Source: a virus
Lineage: Duplodnaviria > Caudoviricetes
DNA length: 64,000 nt
Strand: one strand, 5' to 3'
Virus record (IMG/VR): IMGVR_UViG_3300028800_000090
Span: 2,187-66,186 of that record
Shown here one piece after another: positions 21,260 through 33,211 of the stretch. A program made the position numbers and the translations under genes. The notes beneath the pieces are model-generated. The model worked only from the letters and a program-made list of their open reading frames with translations, had not been told where the DNA came from and made no database searches. The stretch's first letter is position 1. Every line of letters begins with the position of its first letter.

Positions 21260-21979
21260 ATGCCATACGGTGTCATTTATTGCCTCACAAATCTCGCTAA
21301 TGGAAAGTTCTACATCGGGCAGACCTCGCAGGCTCCGACACTGCGGCTGTATCAGCATTTCAAAGATGCCGAGCGCAAAACGGGACCCCTGCAAGCCGCG
21401 CTACGAAAATATGGGAGGGATGGCTTCTCGTTCGAAGTTCTTTCTGAGGCTGATAGTGCTGACGACCTAAACCGACTTGAAACACTCTGGATACTGAGCA
21501 CGAATGCTAATATCCGCGGGATCGGATACAACTGCGATAGCGGGGGAACTAGTAAGACGGCAAATGCGGAGACGCGAGAGAAATTGCGAGTAGCTCATTT
21601 AGGGAAAAAGCAGGGGCCTGAACAAATTGCCAAGCGTGTTATGTCTATGAAAGGGAAGAAACGTTCCGGGGTTGCCTTACAAAATCTTGTGAATGGTGCC
21701 CGTAAGCGCAGTGCCCAACTAACCCCAGAGCAGCGCTCCGCAATGGCGGACAGGTTCAGACTTTTCGCAACGGGCAGAGAGCCTCCTAACAAAGGCAAGA
21801 AGGGCATTCAGACGCCATGGAACAAGGGAATTCCGATGTCCGAAGAGATGAAATCTCGTCAGAGTGCCCTGCGTAAAGGAGTGAGTTTGAGTCCTGAGCA
21901 CAAGGCTCGCATCTCGGCTGCGATGAAAGGTAAAATGCCGACAGTGAATTTGAGACGCAAAGCAGCTACCGCAGCATAA
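21260..21979 (+). CDS. GIY-YIG homing endonuclease with NUMOD3 repeats
   Basis: GVIYCLTNLANGKFYIGQT...R...GYN; ETREKLR-AHLGKK, PWNKG, SPEHKARIS. Confidence 0.92.
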   Translation: MPYGVIYCLTNLANGKFYIGQTSQAPTLRLYQHFKDAERKTGPLQAALRKYGRDGFSFEVLSEADSADDLNRLETLWILSTNANIRGIGYNCDSGGTSKTANAETREKLRVAHLGKKQGPEQIAKRVMSMKGKKRSGVALQNLVNGARKRSAQLTPEQRSAMADRFRLFATGREPPNKGKKGIQTPWNKGIPMSEEMKSRQSALRKGVSLSPEHKARISAAMKGKMPTVNLRRKAATAA

Positions 21980-22599: not shown

Positions 22600-22630
22600 A
22601 CGGGTCACCTTCGGGTGGCCCGTACTTTTT
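22600..22630 (+). terminator. Rho-independent terminator
   Basis: ACGGGTCACC-TTCG-GGTGGCCCGT then ACTTTTT; C(UUCG)G loop. Confidence 0.8.
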
Positions 22631-25792: not shown

Positions 25793-26404
25793 TCATGGGG
25801 TGGAGTCAACTCGATCCACCCATGAATTTCCCACGCAGACGCTCCAAACCGTATGAGTTGAGATTTCGTAGAGCCTCGCGATATCAGTACGCCGCATCCC
25901 TTGGGCGTCAAGGTCTCGGATAGCCCTAGCTCTCTCTCTGGAGAGTTTCATGCTTCGACGTCGTTCATTATTGATTCTCGGGGTGACGGGTTCGTTATGG
26001 TCTGGATTGACGCATGGAGGCTGGAAACAAAGATGGTCAAGGTCAAGGCCTTCTGGAATTGGCCCTTTAGCTTGCTCGTAGAACCAGCGATGCGCAGGCT
26101 GGCTCTTGCCGTCACGACTGATTTTCCCGTACCCCATATGGTCGCGGTGCCATTGCCATATCCAGCATGGGGTCTTGTAGCCGCAGTCCTCGACGATGTA
26201 CTGAGGAGTTTTCGGTCGAAGGCGATGGTGCTGTATCCACCGAACTGGATACCCAAGCAAAGTATTGTCGCGTTTCGACGTAGATTTCGCCAACGGAGTC
26301 TTTTCTCCGCAGTCGCACCAGCAAAGACCAGAGGGATTCGGCTGGTCGGTTATAGCGCGTTCACGAGTCTTTGCGTAGGGTCCGTACTTGGGTCTCTGTG
26401 GCAT
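25793..26404 (-). CDS. HNH homing endonuclease with N-terminal Cys motif and C-terminal HTH
   Basis: ATG 26404 after GAGAGGA; GLCWCDCGEKT; CWIWQ...GYG...AHRWFYE...GPIPEGLDLDHLC...CVNPDH; DIARLYEIS. Confidence 0.9.
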   Translation of the reverse strand: MPQRPKYGPYAKTRERAITDQPNPSGLCWCDCGEKTPLAKSTSKRDNTLLGYPVRWIQHHRLRPKTPQYIVEDCGYKTPCWIWQWHRDHMGYGKISRDGKSQPAHRWFYEQAKGPIPEGLDLDHLCFQPPCVNPDHNEPVTPRINNERRRSMKLSRERARAIRDLDAQGMRRTDIARLYEISTHTVWSVCVGNSWVDRVDSTP

Positions 26405-26507
26405 CTTTGATCCTCTCAAGGTAGGACGGCAGCGGAGTCCTTGAGTTCTCCGCCACCTAACGCCGGGTAATTAGTCCGTCGCCCTTTACTGCACCACCAG
26501 AATACCA
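26405..26507 (-). promoter_or_regulatory. Extended -10 promoter and pseudoknotted leader of the HNH gene
   Basis: TG-G-TATTCT (26507-26499); 10-bp stem whose loop CTCAAGG complements CCTTGAG at the SD. Confidence 0.55.
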
Positions 26508-29067: not shown

Positions 29068-29439
29068 ATGGCAAAGCTGCTTCTAACCGCTCTCAAACTG
29101 GTGCAGGCTCCGGGGCCGGACAACCGGCTCTACGTCAAGGCTGCAACCGCAGACAACGTGTATGTGACGGGTGGCGTAGCGCTCGACCTCTCCCCGGGCA
29201 AGATCACTGACCCGAATGCGCTGGGCGTTGTAGGCCCGTCGCAGGTTCCGGTCGTGACCCCAGGCGTCTTCACCGAATCGCTCGGCGGGTACAACGCAGC
29301 TGTGGTGCCGACTACCGGAGGACTCAGCGGCTACAAGCTTCAGTACTGGACTTCCGGAGGCACAGAGCTTGGCGCTGGAGCGTATCCTGCGGCGATCTCG
29401 GGCGGAAACCTCGTGCTTGAAATCCCGTACGAGTCGTAG
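29068..29439 (+). CDS. Small virion (decoration-like) protein
   Basis: SD AAGGAG; 'YVTGGVALD', 'GTELGAGAYP'. Confidence 0.7.
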   Translation: MAKLLLTALKLVQAPGPDNRLYVKAATADNVYVTGGVALDLSPGKITDPNALGVVGPSQVPVVTPGVFTESLGGYNAAVVPTTGGLSGYKLQYWTSGGTELGAGAYPAAISGGNLVLEIPYES

Positions 29440-29498
29440 GGTATACTCGGTTCACCATTCGAGTAAGGCAATTCGGCGCATCGCTCGCGGCATGACCG

Positions 29499-29528
29499 TT
29501 GACTGATGCGCCAGATTTTTGCTACATT
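29499..29528 (+). promoter_or_regulatory. Sigma70-like promoter for the ncRNA
   Basis: TTGACT (29499-29504), 18-nt spacer ending TGc, TACATT (29523-29528). Confidence 0.7.
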
Positions 29529-29534
29529 GTTGCA

Positions 29535-30020
29535 AGTCGTGACAAGCGTTCCGTGAGGATATGGCTTGGTTCTCTCTGTAATGGGGGTAGCGACACAAGG
29601 TTATACATCGGGCAGCCGCAGTGGGTGTGCATACCTGCTGACCAACGGTTGAGGTATCTGGGCACAGTAACCCGATAGGGTGCCTGTCTGAGTGAGACGG
29701 AACAAGCCCAAGGCGGGAGGGGCAATTCTCACAACCCGCACTTGATTTTGCAGTGGCAGACATCGGCGCGACATGGGATATAAATGCTCGGGAGACGTGC
29801 TCGGGTATCCGCCCCCACGATGGACGCTTTCACAGGCTTAGGCCACTGCAAGTAACATTCCACCGACAGAGCAGTAGCCGTCCCCCAGGGCCCAGTAAGC
29901 CACAGTTTGCAACTGAGATCGTGCCGTACTCGGGAGTGGCCCAAGGAGAAGTGAGGTACAGGGGTTGCTCGCACATGAGCGCAGCAAAAGGGAGGGGCCT
30001 TCGGGCTCCTCCTTTCATTT
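29535..30020 (+). ncRNA. Large structured non-coding RNA (~485 nt), family not recognised
   Basis: No credible ORF; own promoter and terminator; many nested helices including a 10-bp perfect TTGCAGTGGC/GCCACTGCAA, 5'-3' closing helix, GCAA tetraloop, several AGTA motifs. Confidence 0.75.
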
Positions 30021-30021
30021 T
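29987..30021 (+). terminator. Rho-independent terminator
   Basis: AAAGGGAGGGGCC-TTCG-GGCTCCTCCTTT-CATTTT. Confidence 0.85.
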
Positions 30022-30136
30022 GACGTAGCGCGAGTTTCTGTCGCTTCCTCGCGCTGGTGGTGCACCGAAGGAGAGCGACGTCAGGTGCCCAGCACGGCCC
30101 CCAGAGATGGGGGCCTTACCTTTTGAGGGTGAACGA

Positions 30137-33100
30137 TTGGCCAACTTTGCAGGGCAGCCCAGCATCTTTTCGAGATTCCTGGGCTACATGGACGAGGACG
30201 ACCCGACCAATCTTCCCTCCGGGGTAGCCTCGCTTGCCCGCAATACCGACTTCACGTACACCTCCGCCAAGACCCGCGCGGGCGTGAACCTCACCATGCA
30301 GGGCGTCAACAAAAGCCCCATCACCGGCTTGTTCGGTCTCGTCTACACTCCCCAGACCGATGCGCCTGCGGACGTGATGTTCCAGTTGCCAACCATCTTC
30401 GACAAGACTGGAACATTGCAGTACGAGTCCCCACTGGGCACGGGCCGGATGAATCGCTACCCACTGACCTCCCTGTTCACTCCCCCAGCAAACGCTCATG
30501 CGCTTGGGTCACAGGCCTACAACCGGCTCTACGCTTCATTTTCAAATCTGATCAATCCACTCGCCCGCTGCGGAGTGATCGACCTCAAGACCAAGAACGT
30601 TGACCCCTACGGGCAGAAGCCTTTCGGGTGGGCATGGATTACGAATACGCAGTGCCTGGTCGGGGAGATGGCAACCCCGTCGGAGATTCAGAACGGCTCA
30701 ACCGTCTCAGTCGGAAACGGGCACACCTACCGCTGCATCGTCGCCGGGACCACCGGAGCAACCCAACCTATCTGGCCGCTGACTGAAGGCGGGATCGTCG
30801 TCGACGGCACGGTGCACTGGCAGGAACTGACGATGGTTCTCGCCAACCGCATCCCCCAACCCGACGCTCCAGCGCTCACGCGCGACCCCGGTGCAGGAGC
30901 TTTTGCAGCCGGCCAGGACGTCTACATCATCATCACGCTCCTGAATCCCCAGGGCGAGACCATCGCCTCGATCGCTTCCGTGCTGGTCGATACCGACCTG
31001 AACGATGCGGTCGACGTTGCCATTCCTGCGCTGGCGAGCTTCCCCAGTTGGGTGCAGGGACTGGTTGCTCCGTACGAAGTCACCGGCGCCAACGTCTACG
31101 AGATGGATGTGGCGACCGGTGCAGAGCCTCCGCCGCTGACCGAGTACCAGCGGGTTGCGGGCAGCCCCTTTGCGCTTGGGGCAACCTTAGTCGTCACCGA
31201 TACCGCAACTTCCGGCATCTTCCCCCCGACCCGCAACAGCGCGCGCATCACGCCGGGCATGATTCCAAACCCCGTAGTTGCTCCGGTGCTCACGCGGGAT
31301 GCTTTGGGAGGCGCTTTCCCCGCCGGCCGCGACGTGTGGGTGCGGCAGACGTACACGAATGCGACAGGGGAAACGCTCCTCGGGCCTTCGAACTCCATCA
31401 TCGACACCCAGGCCAACGATGCGGTGCAGGTGACAGTCCAAGGGCTGACGGGCTACACTCTCACCGGGGTAAACCTCTATGAGGCCGATGTCGCTACCGG
31501 AGAAGTGGAGCCGGATCCAACTCAGTATGCACTTGTGGGCTCTTTCCAGCCAGGCGCAACCGCAACGATCACTGCCTCGGCTTCGGGGCCACCTGCACCC
31601 ATTACGAATACGACTGGGACGGGCGGCAACATTGTTGCTGACACGGAGATGGGTGGGCTAAATGACACTCAGGGATACCGATACGCTGTCTGTTCCTTCC
31701 AAAACCGCAACGGCTCAAACTCTGGCATCACTTCGGGTTCGGTTATCCAGTACATCGTCGACGAAGACGGTTGGGAGCTTGCTGTCTTCAATGTCGCTGT
31801 CGGCCCCCTCAACATATCCAAACGGCTCATCGGCTTTGCTGTCGCAGACGGAGTGCCAGCCGGACCCTTCGGTTACATCAGTCAGTCTCAAATATCAGAC
31901 GGTATTCAGGTGCTTGCCAGCGTCATCAACGATAACGTCACGACGCAAACGGTAGTCAACTTCACCGACGATCAACTCCTAGCGGCCATCGCCGCCGGCG
32001 ACCAGCTCACCAGCTATTTCGACACCATCTGGCCTTTGCCGTGCGTCGACCTCTACTACTCCCCCTCGACCAACCGATTCTTCCAGACCGGGATGCCGGG
32101 GTTTGCTTCCAGCCACTTTGTCTCGCAGGCAGGGGACGCAGAGACGTACCAGGGTTCGACTTGTGACATCCAGGTAGGGCAGGATGACGGCGAGCGCTGC
32201 ATCTGCGTCCGAGAGTTCACCAACGGAACCATTTTCTCGCTGCGGGAGCGCTCGGGCTTCATCATCACTCCAAGTTCGGCGAACCCGATTCTCTGGAACG
32301 TGCAGAGGCAGTGGTCAAAGGTTGGCCCATGCGGTCCGCGGGCGGTCGACGTCGCCGGGAACTTCCTCATCTTTGTGCACCGTTCGGGTATCTATCGATA
32401 CGAGCAGGGCCAGCCGGAACTGCTTACGAAGGAAATTCCCTACTTCTGGCAGACGATCAACTGGGCGGCGCAGCAGACCATTTGGCTGGAGATCGATGAG
32501 GAGAAGCGCATCGTGCGTTGCGGGTTGCCGGTGAACGGCAGTGCGGTGCCTAACGTCGAACTGACCATCTCCTATGTCGAAGGGTGGGCGTATCCCATTC
32601 ATTTCTCGACCTATTCGGGCAAGATGATCGCGGTGGACGCCTGCCGCAAGATCAGCATCAACGACATCGCGGCGAACTGCGCCGGGCGGATTGAACGGGC
32701 TTTGCCGCCTCCTCCTGATCCGCCGCAAGGGGTTACAGGCATCGAGCAGACCGGTGGGGACTTCTACCAGTCGCAGTTCGTGTACGGCTCGAGCGCTGCG
32801 GACGGGACGGTGCAGGCCATCACCCCCGGAATCTACTCGGACAATCAGGCTGGGATCGATTGGCACTACCGCACAGTGTCGACGCAGCAGATGCAGGCGC
32901 TTTCGAAGTGCGAAGGGCTGAACCTGAACGCAAGGGGCGAGGGATCGATCAATGCCACTTTCCTCTCAGGCAGGGATATGCTCACCGACTGGACGCCGGG
33001 CGCACCAACGACCAGGGCAGTGAAACTCAGGCCTTTCGACCTCAACCCCGGACAAAGTGCAGGGATTTCAAGGAATTGCGAGTCGAGGGTCAATGAGCAC

Positions 33101-33211
33101 TGGATGTGTGAACTGGATAACGGAAAAGTACCCGGAGCATGGTGCGAGCTCAAGACCTTGATCGTCTACACCATCCCGATGTATGGAGCCAGGGACGGAA
33201 GTGAAGGATGA
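30137..33211 (+). CDS. Tail protein, P22 gp10 / T7 tubular protein B-like, with inserted Fn3-like repeats
   Basis: TTG start after GAGGGTG; N-terminal 'FLG...DPTNLP...SLARN'; C-terminal 'GQDDGE', 'KVGPCGPRAV', 'GIYRY', 'W-TINW'; position before the ejection genes. Confidence 0.75.
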   Translation: MANFAGQPSIFSRFLGYMDEDDPTNLPSGVASLARNTDFTYTSAKTRAGVNLTMQGVNKSPITGLFGLVYTPQTDAPADVMFQLPTIFDKTGTLQYESPLGTGRMNRYPLTSLFTPPANAHALGSQAYNRLYASFSNLINPLARCGVIDLKTKNVDPYGQKPFGWAWITNTQCLVGEMATPSEIQNGSTVSVGNGHTYRCIVAGTTGATQPIWPLTEGGIVVDGTVHWQELTMVLANRIPQPDAPALTRDPGAGAFAAGQDVYIIITLLNPQGETIASIASVLVDTDLNDAVDVAIPALASFPSWVQGLVAPYEVTGANVYEMDVATGAEPPPLTEYQRVAGSPFALGATLVVTDTATSGIFPPTRNSARITPGMIPNPVVAPVLTRDALGGAFPAGRDVWVRQTYTNATGETLLGPSNSIIDTQANDAVQVTVQGLTGYTLTGVNLYEADVATGEVEPDPTQYALVGSFQPGATATITASASGPPAPITNTTGTGGNIVADTEMGGLNDTQGYRYAVCSFQNRNGSNSGITSGSVIQYIVDEDGWELAVFNVAVGPLNISKRLIGFAVADGVPAGPFGYISQSQISDGIQVLASVINDNVTTQTVVNFTDDQLLAAIAAGDQLTSYFDTIWPLPCVDLYYSPSTNRFFQTGMPGFASSHFVSQAGDAETYQGSTCDIQVGQDDGERCICVREFTNGTIFSLRERSGFIITPSSANPILWNVQRQWSKVGPCGPRAVDVAGNFLIFVHRSGIYRYEQGQPELLTKEIPYFWQTINWAAQQTIWLEIDEEKRIVRCGLPVNGSAVPNVELTISYVEGWAYPIHFSTYSGKMIAVDACRKISINDIAANCAGRIERALPPPPDPPQGVTGIEQTGGDFYQSQFVYGSSAADGTVQAITPGIYSDNQAGIDWHYRTVSTQQMQALSKCEGLNLNARGEGSINATFLSGRDMLTDWTPGAPTTRAVKLRPFDLNPGQSAGISRNCESRVNEHWMCELDNGKVPGAWCELKTLIVYTIPMYGARDGSEG

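What the first reader, a model, noticed from the sequence alone, without database searches (positions are those of the whole stretch)
29499..30021. Stand-alone ~485-nt structured RNA gene inside the virion morphogenesis operon
Seen: a ~690-bp gap with no credible ORF between two structural genes. It holds a near-consensus promoter (TTGACT-18-TACATT with TG extension), a predicted start near 29535 and a strong UUCG terminator. Helices found by eye: 5'/3' closing GCGTTC-c-GTG (29546-55) with CAT-GAGCGC (29974-82); GGCTTG 29563/CAAGCC 29703, enclosing ATCGGG/CCCGAT, TGTGC/GCACA, ATACCT/AGGTAT and CTGTCT/AGACGG; GCGGG/CCCGC capped by a GCAA tetraloop; a perfect 10-bp TTGCAGTGGC 29748/GCCACTGCAA 29842, enclosing CATCG/CGATG and GGATA/TATCC; GAGCAG/TTGCTC, GGGCC/GGCCC and CAGTT/AACTG. 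Four AGTA motifs are possible loop-E modules. I see no tmRNA, RNase P, or group I/II intron signatures. Known: phages carry large ncRNAs such as GOLLD, ROOL and phi29 pRNA. Inference: this may be a new large phage RNA class acting in packaging, assembly, anti-defence sponging or antitermination.
Basis: partly seen in the sequence, partly recalled or inferred. Interest (0 to 1): 0.92.

Follow-up and report, generated by a model that had tools for sequence, protein, structure and literature searches.

The report
Orphan noncoding cassette beside CyVA-1 RNA
A roughly 700-base stretch without genes was inserted between two virion genes of an uncultivated soil phage; it looks like a small self-contained RNA unit next to a known small RNA, but the elaborate fold proposed for it is no better than chance.

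Summary
The gap is real: 697 nt (29440-30136) with no credible gene. It lies between a 123-aa gene and a 1024-aa virion gene that starts at TTG 30137. It is an insertion. In 32 related loci the same two genes lie 4-300 nt apart, and none shares sequence with the insert.

The stated motifs are present: a promoter-like site (29499-29528, TG-extended), a strong hairpin terminator (29988-30021) and all 14 helices. The helices are what chance gives. The body (29535-29985) folds worse than 94 of 100 shuffles (z +1.42). Counts of complementary 5-mers and 6-mers equal shuffle counts.

I found no homologue of the body anywhere I searched, so covariation cannot be tested. I also found no protein remnant.

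A CyVA-1 small RNA (Rfam RF02965) starts at 30022, directly after the terminator. One relative (L042) carries a permuted tmRNA gene in the same slot.

Best reading (0.45): a lineage-specific promoter-terminator cassette with RNA cargo in a variable RNA-gene slot. A new large structured RNA class is unsupported (about 0.1).

This scan has noted CyVA-1 relatives in other phages before, but nothing resembling the 485-nt body.

The parts
29068..29439 (+). Upstream flanking gene (123 aa, no family). In relatives it abuts the big virion gene.
   Evidence: ORF list. The exact protein is in the public protein collection, with a 92%-identical relative. Codon-position GC is 0.67/0.49/0.70, typical of this phage's genes.
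29440..29530 (+). Left edge of the insert. It holds two hairpins. The second (about 29467-29523) includes the 8-bp inverted repeat GGCGCATC/GATGCGCC, which flanks the -35 box and runs into a T5 tract. It may be a terminator for the head genes or an operator (inference).
   Evidence: Fold: -35.2 kcal/mol, z -3.80, 0 of 200 shuffles fold as well. The inverted repeat is I2.
29499..29528 (+). Promoter-like site TTGACT-18-TACATT with a TG extension. The predicted start is near A29534/29535.
   Evidence: Consensus scans score it 9 of 12 with TG. Site counts in the region are at chance level, so this is suggestive only.
29535..29985 (+). Body of the proposed RNA: 451 nt, 57.4% GC, non-coding, no homologue found, no excess folding stability.
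   Evidence: Folding. Coding tests. Homologue searches. GC.
29988..30021 (+). Intrinsic terminator t1: a 12-bp G+C-rich stem, a UUCG loop, then UUUCAUUUU.
   Evidence: Fold: -21.5 kcal/mol, z -4.02. Similar 28-40-nt sequences occur in a sample of 401 Acidobacteriota genomes; 15 of the 22 matched places fall on this hairpin.
30022..30098 (+). CyVA-1 small RNA motif (Rfam RF02965). Loop 1 (GUCGCU) is complementary to loop 2 (AGCGAC).
   Evidence: cmscan gives 43.0 bits against a gathering score of 41.4, E 2.2e-6 for the whole window and 3.4e-8 for the 1-kb search.
30096..30125 (+). Second terminator-like hairpin t2: GGCCCCCAGAGATGGGGGCC followed by TTACCTTTTG.
   Evidence: Terminator scan. The fold of 30090-30136 has z -3.68.
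30116..30139 (+). Small hairpin that pairs with the Shine-Dalgarno sequence GAGGGTGA, followed by the TTG start codon (30137) of the big virion gene.
   Evidence: Fold. Start codon fixed by alignment of the N-termini of relatives.
30137..33211 (+). Downstream flanking gene (1024 aa from TTG). It served as the anchor for finding relatives.
   Evidence: Five viral and 30 metagenome relatives at 41-56% identity. One weak PHROG hit, head decoration, to 42 residues.

Best explanation
The 697-nt gap is a lineage-specific insertion into a variable intergenic slot of the virion-gene operon of an uncultivated 66-kb phage. It is built like an autonomous, moron-type transcription cassette whose cargo is RNA, not protein.

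The likely mechanism, step by step:
1. A TG-extended sigma-70-like promoter (29499-29528) starts a transcript near 29535.
2. Most transcripts end at the strong terminator t1 (30021), giving an RNA of about 487 nt.
3. Read-through transcripts add the CyVA-1 small RNA (30022-30098) and end at t2 (about 30125).
4. The phage's late transcription must cross t1 and t2 to reach the 18 kb of downstream virion genes. It is therefore probably terminator-resistant, and that would be why such RNA cassettes are tolerated in this slot.

What is shown: the insertion, the non-coding nature, the sequence motifs, the CyVA-1 match, and an RNA gene in the same slot of a relative.

What is inferred: that the promoter fires, that a discrete 487-nt RNA exists, and that it has a function. 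If it acts, I expect a largely unstructured, base-pairing or precursor RNA expressed together with CyVA-1, not a large ornate fold.
For: Insertion:
- In 32 related loci that include the upstream flank, the homologous genes lie 4-300 nt apart. Twenty-six of the 32 are 112 nt apart or less, and none exceeds 300 nt.
- The closest relative (L039, 56% identity) has a 4-nt gap.
- None shares nucleotide similarity with the insert.
- Five related viral records, searched whole, lack both the body and CyVA-1.

Non-coding:
- 0 of 8 gap ORFs are in the 15-billion-protein collection, while both flanking proteins are.
- Codon-position GC is flat and codon scores match off-frame controls.
- The 103-aa and 91-aa ORFs have no homologues.
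- The 81-aa ORF gives only 3 hits, all to tandem-repeat junk translations.
- Pfam and PHROGs give 0 families at E<=5 for the 10 longest of 17 stop-to-stop frames.
- There is no credible Shine-Dalgarno plus start codon.

Cassette signals:
- Promoter-like site with a TG extension.
- Terminators t1 and t2, with z about -4.

RNA-gene slot:
- L042 carries a permuted tmRNA in the same slot (RF04321, 87.7 bits against a gathering score of 47; ARAGORN also calls it). Its terminator abuts the start of the big gene.
- CyVA-1 lies here.

Cassette-type insertions and in-line terminators occur elsewhere in this operon:
- GIY-YIG and HNH homing endonuclease genes.
- A strong sense-strand terminator at 22600-22623.

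Literature: morons are defined as extra DNA relative to related phages, with their own promoter and terminator, first described in a tail operon (PMC3594210, passages read). Small-RNA genes occupy moron sites in lambdoid prophages (PMC4104026, passages read).
Against: - There is no expression evidence of any kind.
- Promoter-like sites occur at chance frequency in this genome (5 found against 5.6 +/- 2.7 expected in 20 kb; 4 against 5.3 +/- 2.2). The promoter call therefore rests on position, orientation and the TG extension alone.
- The body has no homologue and no sign of selection. Copies in four further metagenome runs are identical, so they say nothing.
- GC of the body (57.4%) is within 1 SD of the genome (59.1 +/- 3.3%), so the compositional hallmark of a moron is missing.
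- No integrase or resolvase was found, so expression from a prophage, the classic rationale for morons, may not apply.
- The body is less stable than its shuffles (z +1.42). That is unusual for a functional stand-alone RNA and equally compatible with junk.
Confidence: 0.45

Rival explanations
1. One reading: a new class of large (about 485 nt), highly structured phage RNA, comparable to GOLLD or ROOL, with the multi-domain fold drawn by eye.
For: - The stretch is non-coding, has promoter-like and terminator signals, and has no Rfam match.
- It sits in an RNA-gene slot.
- It contains a perfect 10-bp helix at 29748/29842.
Against: - z -0.20 with the terminator and +1.42 without it.
- The three proposed domains score z -0.83, -1.27 and +0.69.
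- Helix counts equal shuffle counts. A 10-bp inverted repeat occurs in 9% of shuffles, and four AGTA motifs in 5%.
- The proposed fold is about 25 kcal/mol worse than the MFE.
- A known structured RNA from the same slot, the L042 tmRNA, gives z -1.45 as a control.
- No second member was found, so it is not yet a class.
Confidence: 0.1
2. A cis-acting leader. In this view 29499-29528 is the promoter of the downstream tail and ejection genes, and the 487-nt RNA is the terminated leader. It would be a by-product, like the short RNA made between lambda PR' and tR' (recalled knowledge). Expression of the operon would need antitermination at t1 and t2, and CyVA-1 and the hairpin that masks the Shine-Dalgarno sequence would be part of the leader.
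For: - The hairpin-plus-U-tract at 29467-29523 could end the head-gene transcripts.
- No other promoter-like site lies between t2 and the TTG start.
- Two terminators and a hairpin that masks the Shine-Dalgarno sequence directly precede the gene.
- An inverted repeat flanks the -35 box, as an operator would.
Against: - Of the 32 relatives, 26 have 112 nt or less between these genes, so they need no such control region.
- In L042 the same position holds a tmRNA gene, which is clearly not a leader.
- A 450-nt leader with no structure or conservation has no evident role.
- No antiterminator gene was identified (not searched for specifically).
Confidence: 0.15
3. A functionless remnant. The body would be decayed or captured DNA, for example a dead homing-endonuclease gene or other mobile cargo that arrived together with CyVA-1 and the terminators. 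The promoter-like site would be fortuitous.
For: - The operon already holds two free-standing homing endonuclease genes with the same flat codon-position GC as the gap.
- The body looks like random sequence by folding and by helix statistics.
- It is an orphan in every search.
- Promoter-like sites occur at chance density.
- There is a marginal terminal inverted repeat near both ends: GTTCACC at 29450, GGTGAAC at 30128, plus GTAAGGC; P about 0.05-0.13.
Against: - No protein-family trace at E<=5 in the 10 longest frames.
- No similarity to this phage's own HNH protein.
- No similarity to 646 translated frames from the relatives' slots; the best is 22 bits, which is chance level.
- The TG-extended promoter, the correct orientation and a strong terminator at a sensible distance together make a coherent unit.
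Confidence: 0.22
4. A hidden small protein gene, or a gene read with a recoded stop codon, lies in the gap.
For: - Open frames of 91-128 codons exist.
- Reading TAG as Q joins the 91-aa frame to the big gene.
Against: - Open frames of this length are expected at 57% GC.
- There is no Shine-Dalgarno sequence with proper spacing, no homologue and no family.
- Gene callers called none of them.
- Flanking genes need no recoding, and relatives start the big gene at the residue matching TTG 30137.
Confidence: 0.03

Closest known systems
Phage morons: independent promoter-terminator units inserted between late genes, for example HK97 gene 15 in the tail operon (PMC3594210, passages read)
   Same: It is extra DNA between two genes that are adjacent in related phages. 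It lies inside the virion-gene operon. It has its own promoter-like site and a strong terminator in the sense direction.
   Different: The cargo is non-coding. GC does not deviate from the genome. No integrase was found, so prophage expression is doubtful. The promoter is untested.
Small-RNA genes at moron sites of lambdoid prophages: the anti-sRNAs AsxR and AgvB (PMC4104026, passages read)
   Same: Non-coding RNA cargo carried in an insertion-tolerant site downstream of, or within, antiterminated late transcription.
   Different: Those RNAs are 51-60 nt, Hfq-bound and experimentally shown. This one is about 487 nt, unverified, and in an unrelated soil phage.
Phage-borne RNA genes of known families in the same slot or beside it: the permuted tmRNA in L042 (RF04321) and CyVA-1 (RF02965; Weinberg et al. 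2017, PMC5737381, passages read)
   Same: They occupy the same intergenic slot and orientation, and a terminator abuts the start of the big gene. CyVA-1 is physically contiguous with the element.
   Different: The 451-nt body matches neither family nor any other Rfam model. Its resemblance to CyVA-1 is at chance level (P 0.39). The upstream regions of CyVA-1 copies in cyanobacteria and Acidobacteriota show no similarity to it.
GOLLD and ROOL large phage-associated RNAs (PMC5737381, passage read)
   Same: Large size, a phage context and closeness to other RNA genes.
   Different: Those are defined by conserved, covarying multi-stem structures in many genomes. Here there is no homologue, no Rfam match and no excess stability.
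The lambda PR'-tR' terminated leader, known as 6S RNA (recalled, not checked in a paper here)
   Same: A promoter followed by a terminator upstream of late genes, which would give a discrete short RNA unless antiterminated.
   Different: It lies in the middle of the virion operon, is absent from relatives, is about 2.5 times longer, and no Q-like factor was identified.

Membership tests
Any Rfam 15 family, for the body 29499-30021 | Covariance-model score at or above the family's gathering score | tested here: not met
   The gathering scan of the whole window finds only CyVA-1 at 30022-30098. At E<=10 on 29300-30300 the only overlaps are sub-threshold: NoRC pRNA on the minus strand (24.1 bits against 34), mir-483 and MH_s15.
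tmRNA, standard or permuted | A tRNA-like domain with T-arm and CCA end, a tag reading frame, and a model match | tested here: not met
   ARAGORN finds 0 genes in the window and no tmRNA model matches at E<=10. The same tools find the tmRNA in L042.
Large structured ncRNA of the GOLLD/ROOL type | A conserved multi-helix structure supported by covariation among homologues | not testable with these tools
   No homologue was found in any search.
Large structured ncRNA of the GOLLD/ROOL type | Folding stability or helix content above that of shuffled sequence (supporting, not defining) | tested here: not met
   z +1.42 for the body. Domains score -0.83, -1.27 and +0.69. Counts of 5-mer and 6-mer pairs equal shuffle counts.
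Moron | Extra DNA between genes that are adjacent in related phages | tested here: met
   The gap is 697 nt here against 4-300 nt in 32 related loci.
Moron | Its own promoter | tested here: inconclusive
   There is a 9-of-12 match with a TG extension in the right place and orientation, but such sites occur at chance density. There is no expression data.
Moron | Its own factor-independent terminator | tested here: met
   A 12-bp G+C-rich stem plus a U-tract at 29988-30021, z -4.02. This is sequence-level evidence only.
Moron | GC content different from the surrounding genes | tested here: not met
   57.4% against 59.7-60.0% in the flanks, and a genome mean of 59.1 +/- 3.3% in 451-nt windows.
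Moron | Expressed from the repressed prophage and encoding a protein useful to the host | tested here: not met
   The cargo is non-coding. No integrase or resolvase was found in the 66-kb record. Expression itself cannot be tested here.
CyVA-1 (RF02965), for the adjacent 30022-30098 only | Model score above the gathering score, with the conserved loop-2 core | tested here: met
   43.0 bits against 41.4. The loop-2 core CGAAGGAGAGCGACGUCAG is identical to that of cyanobacterial copies.

The most novel reading that the evidence does not exclude
The roughly 487-nt transcript is a real, functional long non-coding RNA of a family so far seen in only one phage lineage. It would be made as a two-part module with the CyVA-1 small RNA through partial read-through of t1. 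It would act in trans during infection, for example as a base-pairing sponge or partner of CyVA-1. Its segment at 29586-29598 is complementary to CyVA-1 loop 1 at 11 of 13 positions. It would occupy an RNA-cargo slot of the virion operon that other members of this phage group fill with a tmRNA.
Probability: 0.1. Interest if true: 0.65.

Novelty: new member of a known kind. Interest (0 to 1): 0.3.

Why it matters
If the cassette is transcribed, it would be an example of a virulent-looking soil phage carrying long non-coding cargo in the middle of its virion operon. It would sit beside a CyVA-1 RNA, whose function is still unknown. It would also mark an insertion-tolerant RNA-gene slot, since a relative has a tmRNA there. 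That slot could help find more phage RNAs and give a handle on CyVA-1 biology.

As it stands, the main value of this check is negative. The detailed fold and the 'new large RNA class' claim rest on helices that random sequence of this composition supplies in equal number, so the high first-stage score is not warranted.

Tried and rejected
Homologue hunts that found nothing for the body:
- blastn against GenBank phages and plasmids.
- blastn and nhmmer against 5 viral and 30 metagenome relatives.
- A whole-record search of 5 related viral contigs.
- 401 Acidobacteriota genomes, where only matches of 40 nt or less appeared and 15 of 22 fell on the terminator.
- 1200 nt upstream and 600 nt downstream of 38 CyVA-1 copies in genomes.
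- Three loci with weaker CyVA-1 matches.
- An IMG/VR scan for the 10-bp helix pair, which gave 3 unrelated contigs.
- This scan's own index.

CyVA-1 pattern scans of IMG/VR:
- 32 stretches matched the loop-2 core. All were chance or coding matches and none had the flanking helix.
- The loop-1 pattern gave 0 stretches.

Sequencing runs:
- No RNA holder was listed.
- The four DNA runs I laid contain identical contig pieces, with no variants and no joints. This says nothing about expression or selection.

Ideas considered and rejected:
- Degenerate CyVA-1 copies inside the body: the local alignment score has P 0.39.
- A DGR template or an antisense regulator of phage genes: there are only 18-19-nt chance matches elsewhere in the window.
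- ToxI-like or CRISPR-like repeats: there are no tandem repeats.
- A decayed copy of a gene that relatives carry in the slot: 646 translated frames give 22 bits at best.
- A remnant of the phage's HNH gene: no match.
- Recoded stop codons.
- A terminal inverted repeat as a sign of a mobile element: marginal, P 0.05-0.13.

Other limits:
- A promoter for the L042 tmRNA seen by eye (TTGAGT-18-TAGAGT, TG-extended) was not listed by the scan, so I do not use it as support.
- My expansion of the name CyVA is recalled, not checked.
Full report
**What the window is.**
The window is bases 2187-66186 of a 66,186-bp IMG/VR virus record that CheckV rates as complete. It has no relative in GenBank phages: blastn of the gap finds nothing. 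tblastn of the big protein finds only a 64-residue beta-helix match in a Bacillus phage. Genes from about 18 kb to 48.6 kb all run on the + strand. The replication genes (DnaB, YqaJ, ERF) lie on the other arm. No integrase or resolvase was found.

**The gap and its borders.**
The 123-aa gene ends at 29439. The next ORF is listed from ATG 30107. Relatives, however, start at M/V/L-ANFSGQP, which corresponds to TTG 30137 preceded by GAGGGTGA. The gene-free gap is therefore 29440-30136, or 697 nt.

**It is an insertion.**
I collected relatives of the big protein: 5 viral loci at 42-45% identity and 30 metagenome loci at 41-56%. Thirty-two of them include upstream sequence. In these the distance from the last upstream ORF of 90 aa or more to the big gene is 4-300 nt. 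Twenty-six are 112 nt or less and six are 187-300 nt. The closest relatives have 4 nt (L039) and 36 nt (L060). None shows nucleotide similarity to the gap by blastn or nhmmer. Five related viral records, searched whole, lack both the body and CyVA-1.

The slot is variable in the relatives:
- L002, L043 and L048 carry a small zinc-ribbon-like frame.
- L003, L040 and L068 carry long hairpins made of CAGTGGT-type repeats.
- L042 carries a permuted two-piece tmRNA gene. It scores 87.7 bits on RF04321 (gathering score 47) and ARAGORN calls it at L042:2702-3011. Its terminator abuts the Shine-Dalgarno sequence and GTG start of the big gene.

- The scan finds the promoter-like site TTGACT-18-TACATT with TG.
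- The UUCG hairpin at 29988-30021 is very strong: -21.5 kcal/mol, z -4.02.
- All 14 helix pairs are at the stated coordinates and can pair.

- Rfam finds CyVA-1 (RF02965) at 30022-30098, starting at the base after the terminator's U-tract. It scores 43.0 bits against a gathering score of 41.4, with E 2.2e-6 for the window.
- A second terminator-like hairpin lies at 30096-30125. After it comes a small hairpin that pairs with the Shine-Dalgarno sequence.
- The left edge (29440-29530) also folds strongly, with z -3.80. Its second hairpin ends in a U5 tract and overlaps the -35 box and the spacer.

**Is the body structured? The tests say no more than chance.**
- The whole proposed RNA has z -0.20. 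The opposite strand has z +0.39.
- Without the terminator the body has z +1.42, and 94 of 100 shuffles fold at least as well.
- Eleven 120-nt windows across the body give z -0.57 to +1.41. Windows over the left edge, t1, CyVA-1 and t2 reach -1.6 to -2.8.
- As a control, the tmRNA from the same slot in L042 gives z -1.45.
- The body has 102 complementary 5-mer pairs and 27 6-mer pairs. Dinucleotide shuffles have 103.4 +/- 12.4 and 25.8 +/- 6.6.
- The perfect 10-bp helix is matched or beaten in 9% of shuffles. Four AGTA motifs occur in 5%.

Thermodynamics cannot disprove a structure, but nothing here supports one.

**Is it coding? The tests say no.**
- None of the 8 gap ORFs is in the 15-billion-protein collection, whereas both flanking proteins are.
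- Codon-position GC is flat and codon scores equal those of off-frame controls. The phage's two homing endonuclease genes are equally flat, though, so I also ran homology searches.
- The 103-aa and 91-aa ORFs have no homologues.
- The 81-aa ORF hits only three tandem-repeat junk translations.
- Four ORFs and the 10 longest of 17 stop-to-stop frames match no Pfam or PHROG family, even at E<=5.
- No start codon has a well-spaced Shine-Dalgarno sequence.
- Frames from the relatives' slots do not match the gap.
- Recoding TGA or TAG gives nothing convincing.

**Does it travel with CyVA-1? No.**
A genome-collection scan for the CyVA-1 loop-2 core gave 78 matches in 75 loci. Thirty-eight have the flanking helix, and almost all of those are from filamentous cyanobacteria. 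Their flanks show no similarity to the body. Among 151 sampled Acidobacteriota genomes, one has a CyVA-1 above threshold (47.6 bits, next to a tRNA gene). None of 151 genomes sampled from the phylum of a Verrucomicrobiia MAG does. Again there is no similarity to the body. Resemblances between the body and CyVA-1 (CCCAAGGAGA, AGCGAC) are at chance level, with P 0.39.

**Reading.**
The architecture is that of a self-contained cassette dropped into an insertion-tolerant slot: promoter-like site, about 487 nt, strong terminator, then CyVA-1 and a second terminator. This matches the definition of a moron in three respects: extra DNA relative to related phages, its own promoter, and its own terminator. 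The first moron described also lay in a tail operon (PMC3594210, passages read). It fails the definition on deviant GC and on protein cargo. Small-RNA genes at moron sites have precedent (PMC4104026, passages read).

The same operon holds other cassette-like insertions: a GIY-YIG gene at 21260-21979 and an HNH gene at 25793-26419. It also holds another in-line terminator at 22600-22623. In L042 a tmRNA terminator sits immediately before the big gene. I infer that late transcription in this phage group crosses intrinsic terminators, which would make the slot safe for RNA cassettes. This is inference; no antiterminator was identified.

My confidences are:
- about 0.45 for a transcribed RNA cassette
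- 0.22 for a functionless remnant
- 0.15 for a cis-acting leader
- 0.03 for a hidden coding gene

**Limits.**
- There is no expression data. No RNA run was listed, and the laid DNA contigs are identical.
- Close relatives exist in the protein collection (P0002 at 92% identity, P0005 at 99.8%). This is the most direct missing test.
- Earlier notes of this scan report CyVA-1 relatives in many phages, some beside tmRNA or tRNA genes. They agree with the idea of an RNA-cargo slot. They are unchecked AI notes, and I did not test them beyond the Rfam match here.

Noticed in passing
L042:2702-3011 (metagenome relative): A permuted two-piece tmRNA gene sits in the same intergenic slot of a related phage (50% identity in the big protein). 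It scores 87.7 bits on RF04321, and ARAGORN gives the tag peptide GTPLEAYPLAA*. Its terminator abuts the Shine-Dalgarno sequence and GTG start of the big gene.
   Followed up: partly
window 30022-30098: A CyVA-1 (RF02965) small RNA lies directly after terminator t1. Loop 1 (GUCGCU) is complementary to loop 2 (AGCGAC). A copy in an Acidobacteriota genome (G157:C92:6358-6436, 47.6 bits) has ACGGU and ACCGU at the same places, which is a compensatory change supporting a loop-loop contact.
   Followed up: partly
L072-L141 (cyanobacterial genome loci): In filamentous cyanobacteria, CyVA-1 is only the 5' part of a conserved unit of about 200 nt. Twenty to forty nt downstream comes a hairpin, GTGGAG-TTTTTGTCGCTTC-CTCCAC, whose loop is nearly identical to loop 1 of the phage copy. 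A further conserved block follows: CCAAnGGGnGACTAAACTCCCCATCAGAGCGGTC..AGGTAGTAAAC. Copies occur in tandem in L080, L125 and L135 and lie next to unrelated housekeeping genes.
   Followed up: partly
window 21260-21979 (+) and 25793-26419 (-): Two free-standing homing endonuclease genes lie inside the virion-gene module. One is GIY-YIG (E 9.5e-10). The other is HNH_3 plus a helix-turn-helix (E 2e-7). Both have flat codon-position GC, unlike the surrounding genes.
   Followed up: partly
window 22600-22623 (+): Another strong sense-strand intrinsic terminator lies inside the long + strand operon, just before the 556-aa gene. It has a 10-bp stem with 7 G-C pairs, followed by ACTTTTTGCC. This suggests that late transcription reads through terminators.
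   Followed up: no
window 30107-30139: The 1034-aa ORF listed from ATG 30107 most likely starts at TTG 30137. Relatives begin M/V/L-ANFSGQP, and L039 also uses TTG. The ATG lies inside the t2 hairpin.
   Followed up: yes
window 29440-29530: Two stable hairpins lie right after the stop codon of the 123-aa gene (z -3.80). The second contains the inverted repeat GGCGCATC/GATGCGCC, which brackets the -35 box and ends in T5. It may be a terminator for the head genes or an operator.
   Followed up: partly
window 29450-29469 and 30113-30134: There is an imperfect terminal inverted repeat near both ends of the insert: GTTCACC...GTAAGGC on the left, against GCCTTAC...GGTGAAC on the right. It is marginal against random pairs, with P 0.05 for 40-nt ends and 0.13 for 60-nt ends.
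   Followed up: yes
L002/L043, L048; L003, L040, L068 (the slot in relatives): Other relatives fill the slot differently. Some have a short zinc-ribbon-like frame (C..C...CPIC..WHHGH). Others have long hairpins built from CAGTGGT/CAGTGAT heptamer repeats.
   Followed up: no
window 29986-30022 against Acidobacteriota genomes: Sequences of 28-40 nt that are 83-93% identical to terminator t1 occur in a sample of 401 Acidobacteriota genomes. Nineteen genomes matched at E<=0.01, and 15 of the 22 matched places fall on this hairpin. No other phylum was searched as a control, so this is at most a weak hint at the host.
   Followed up: no
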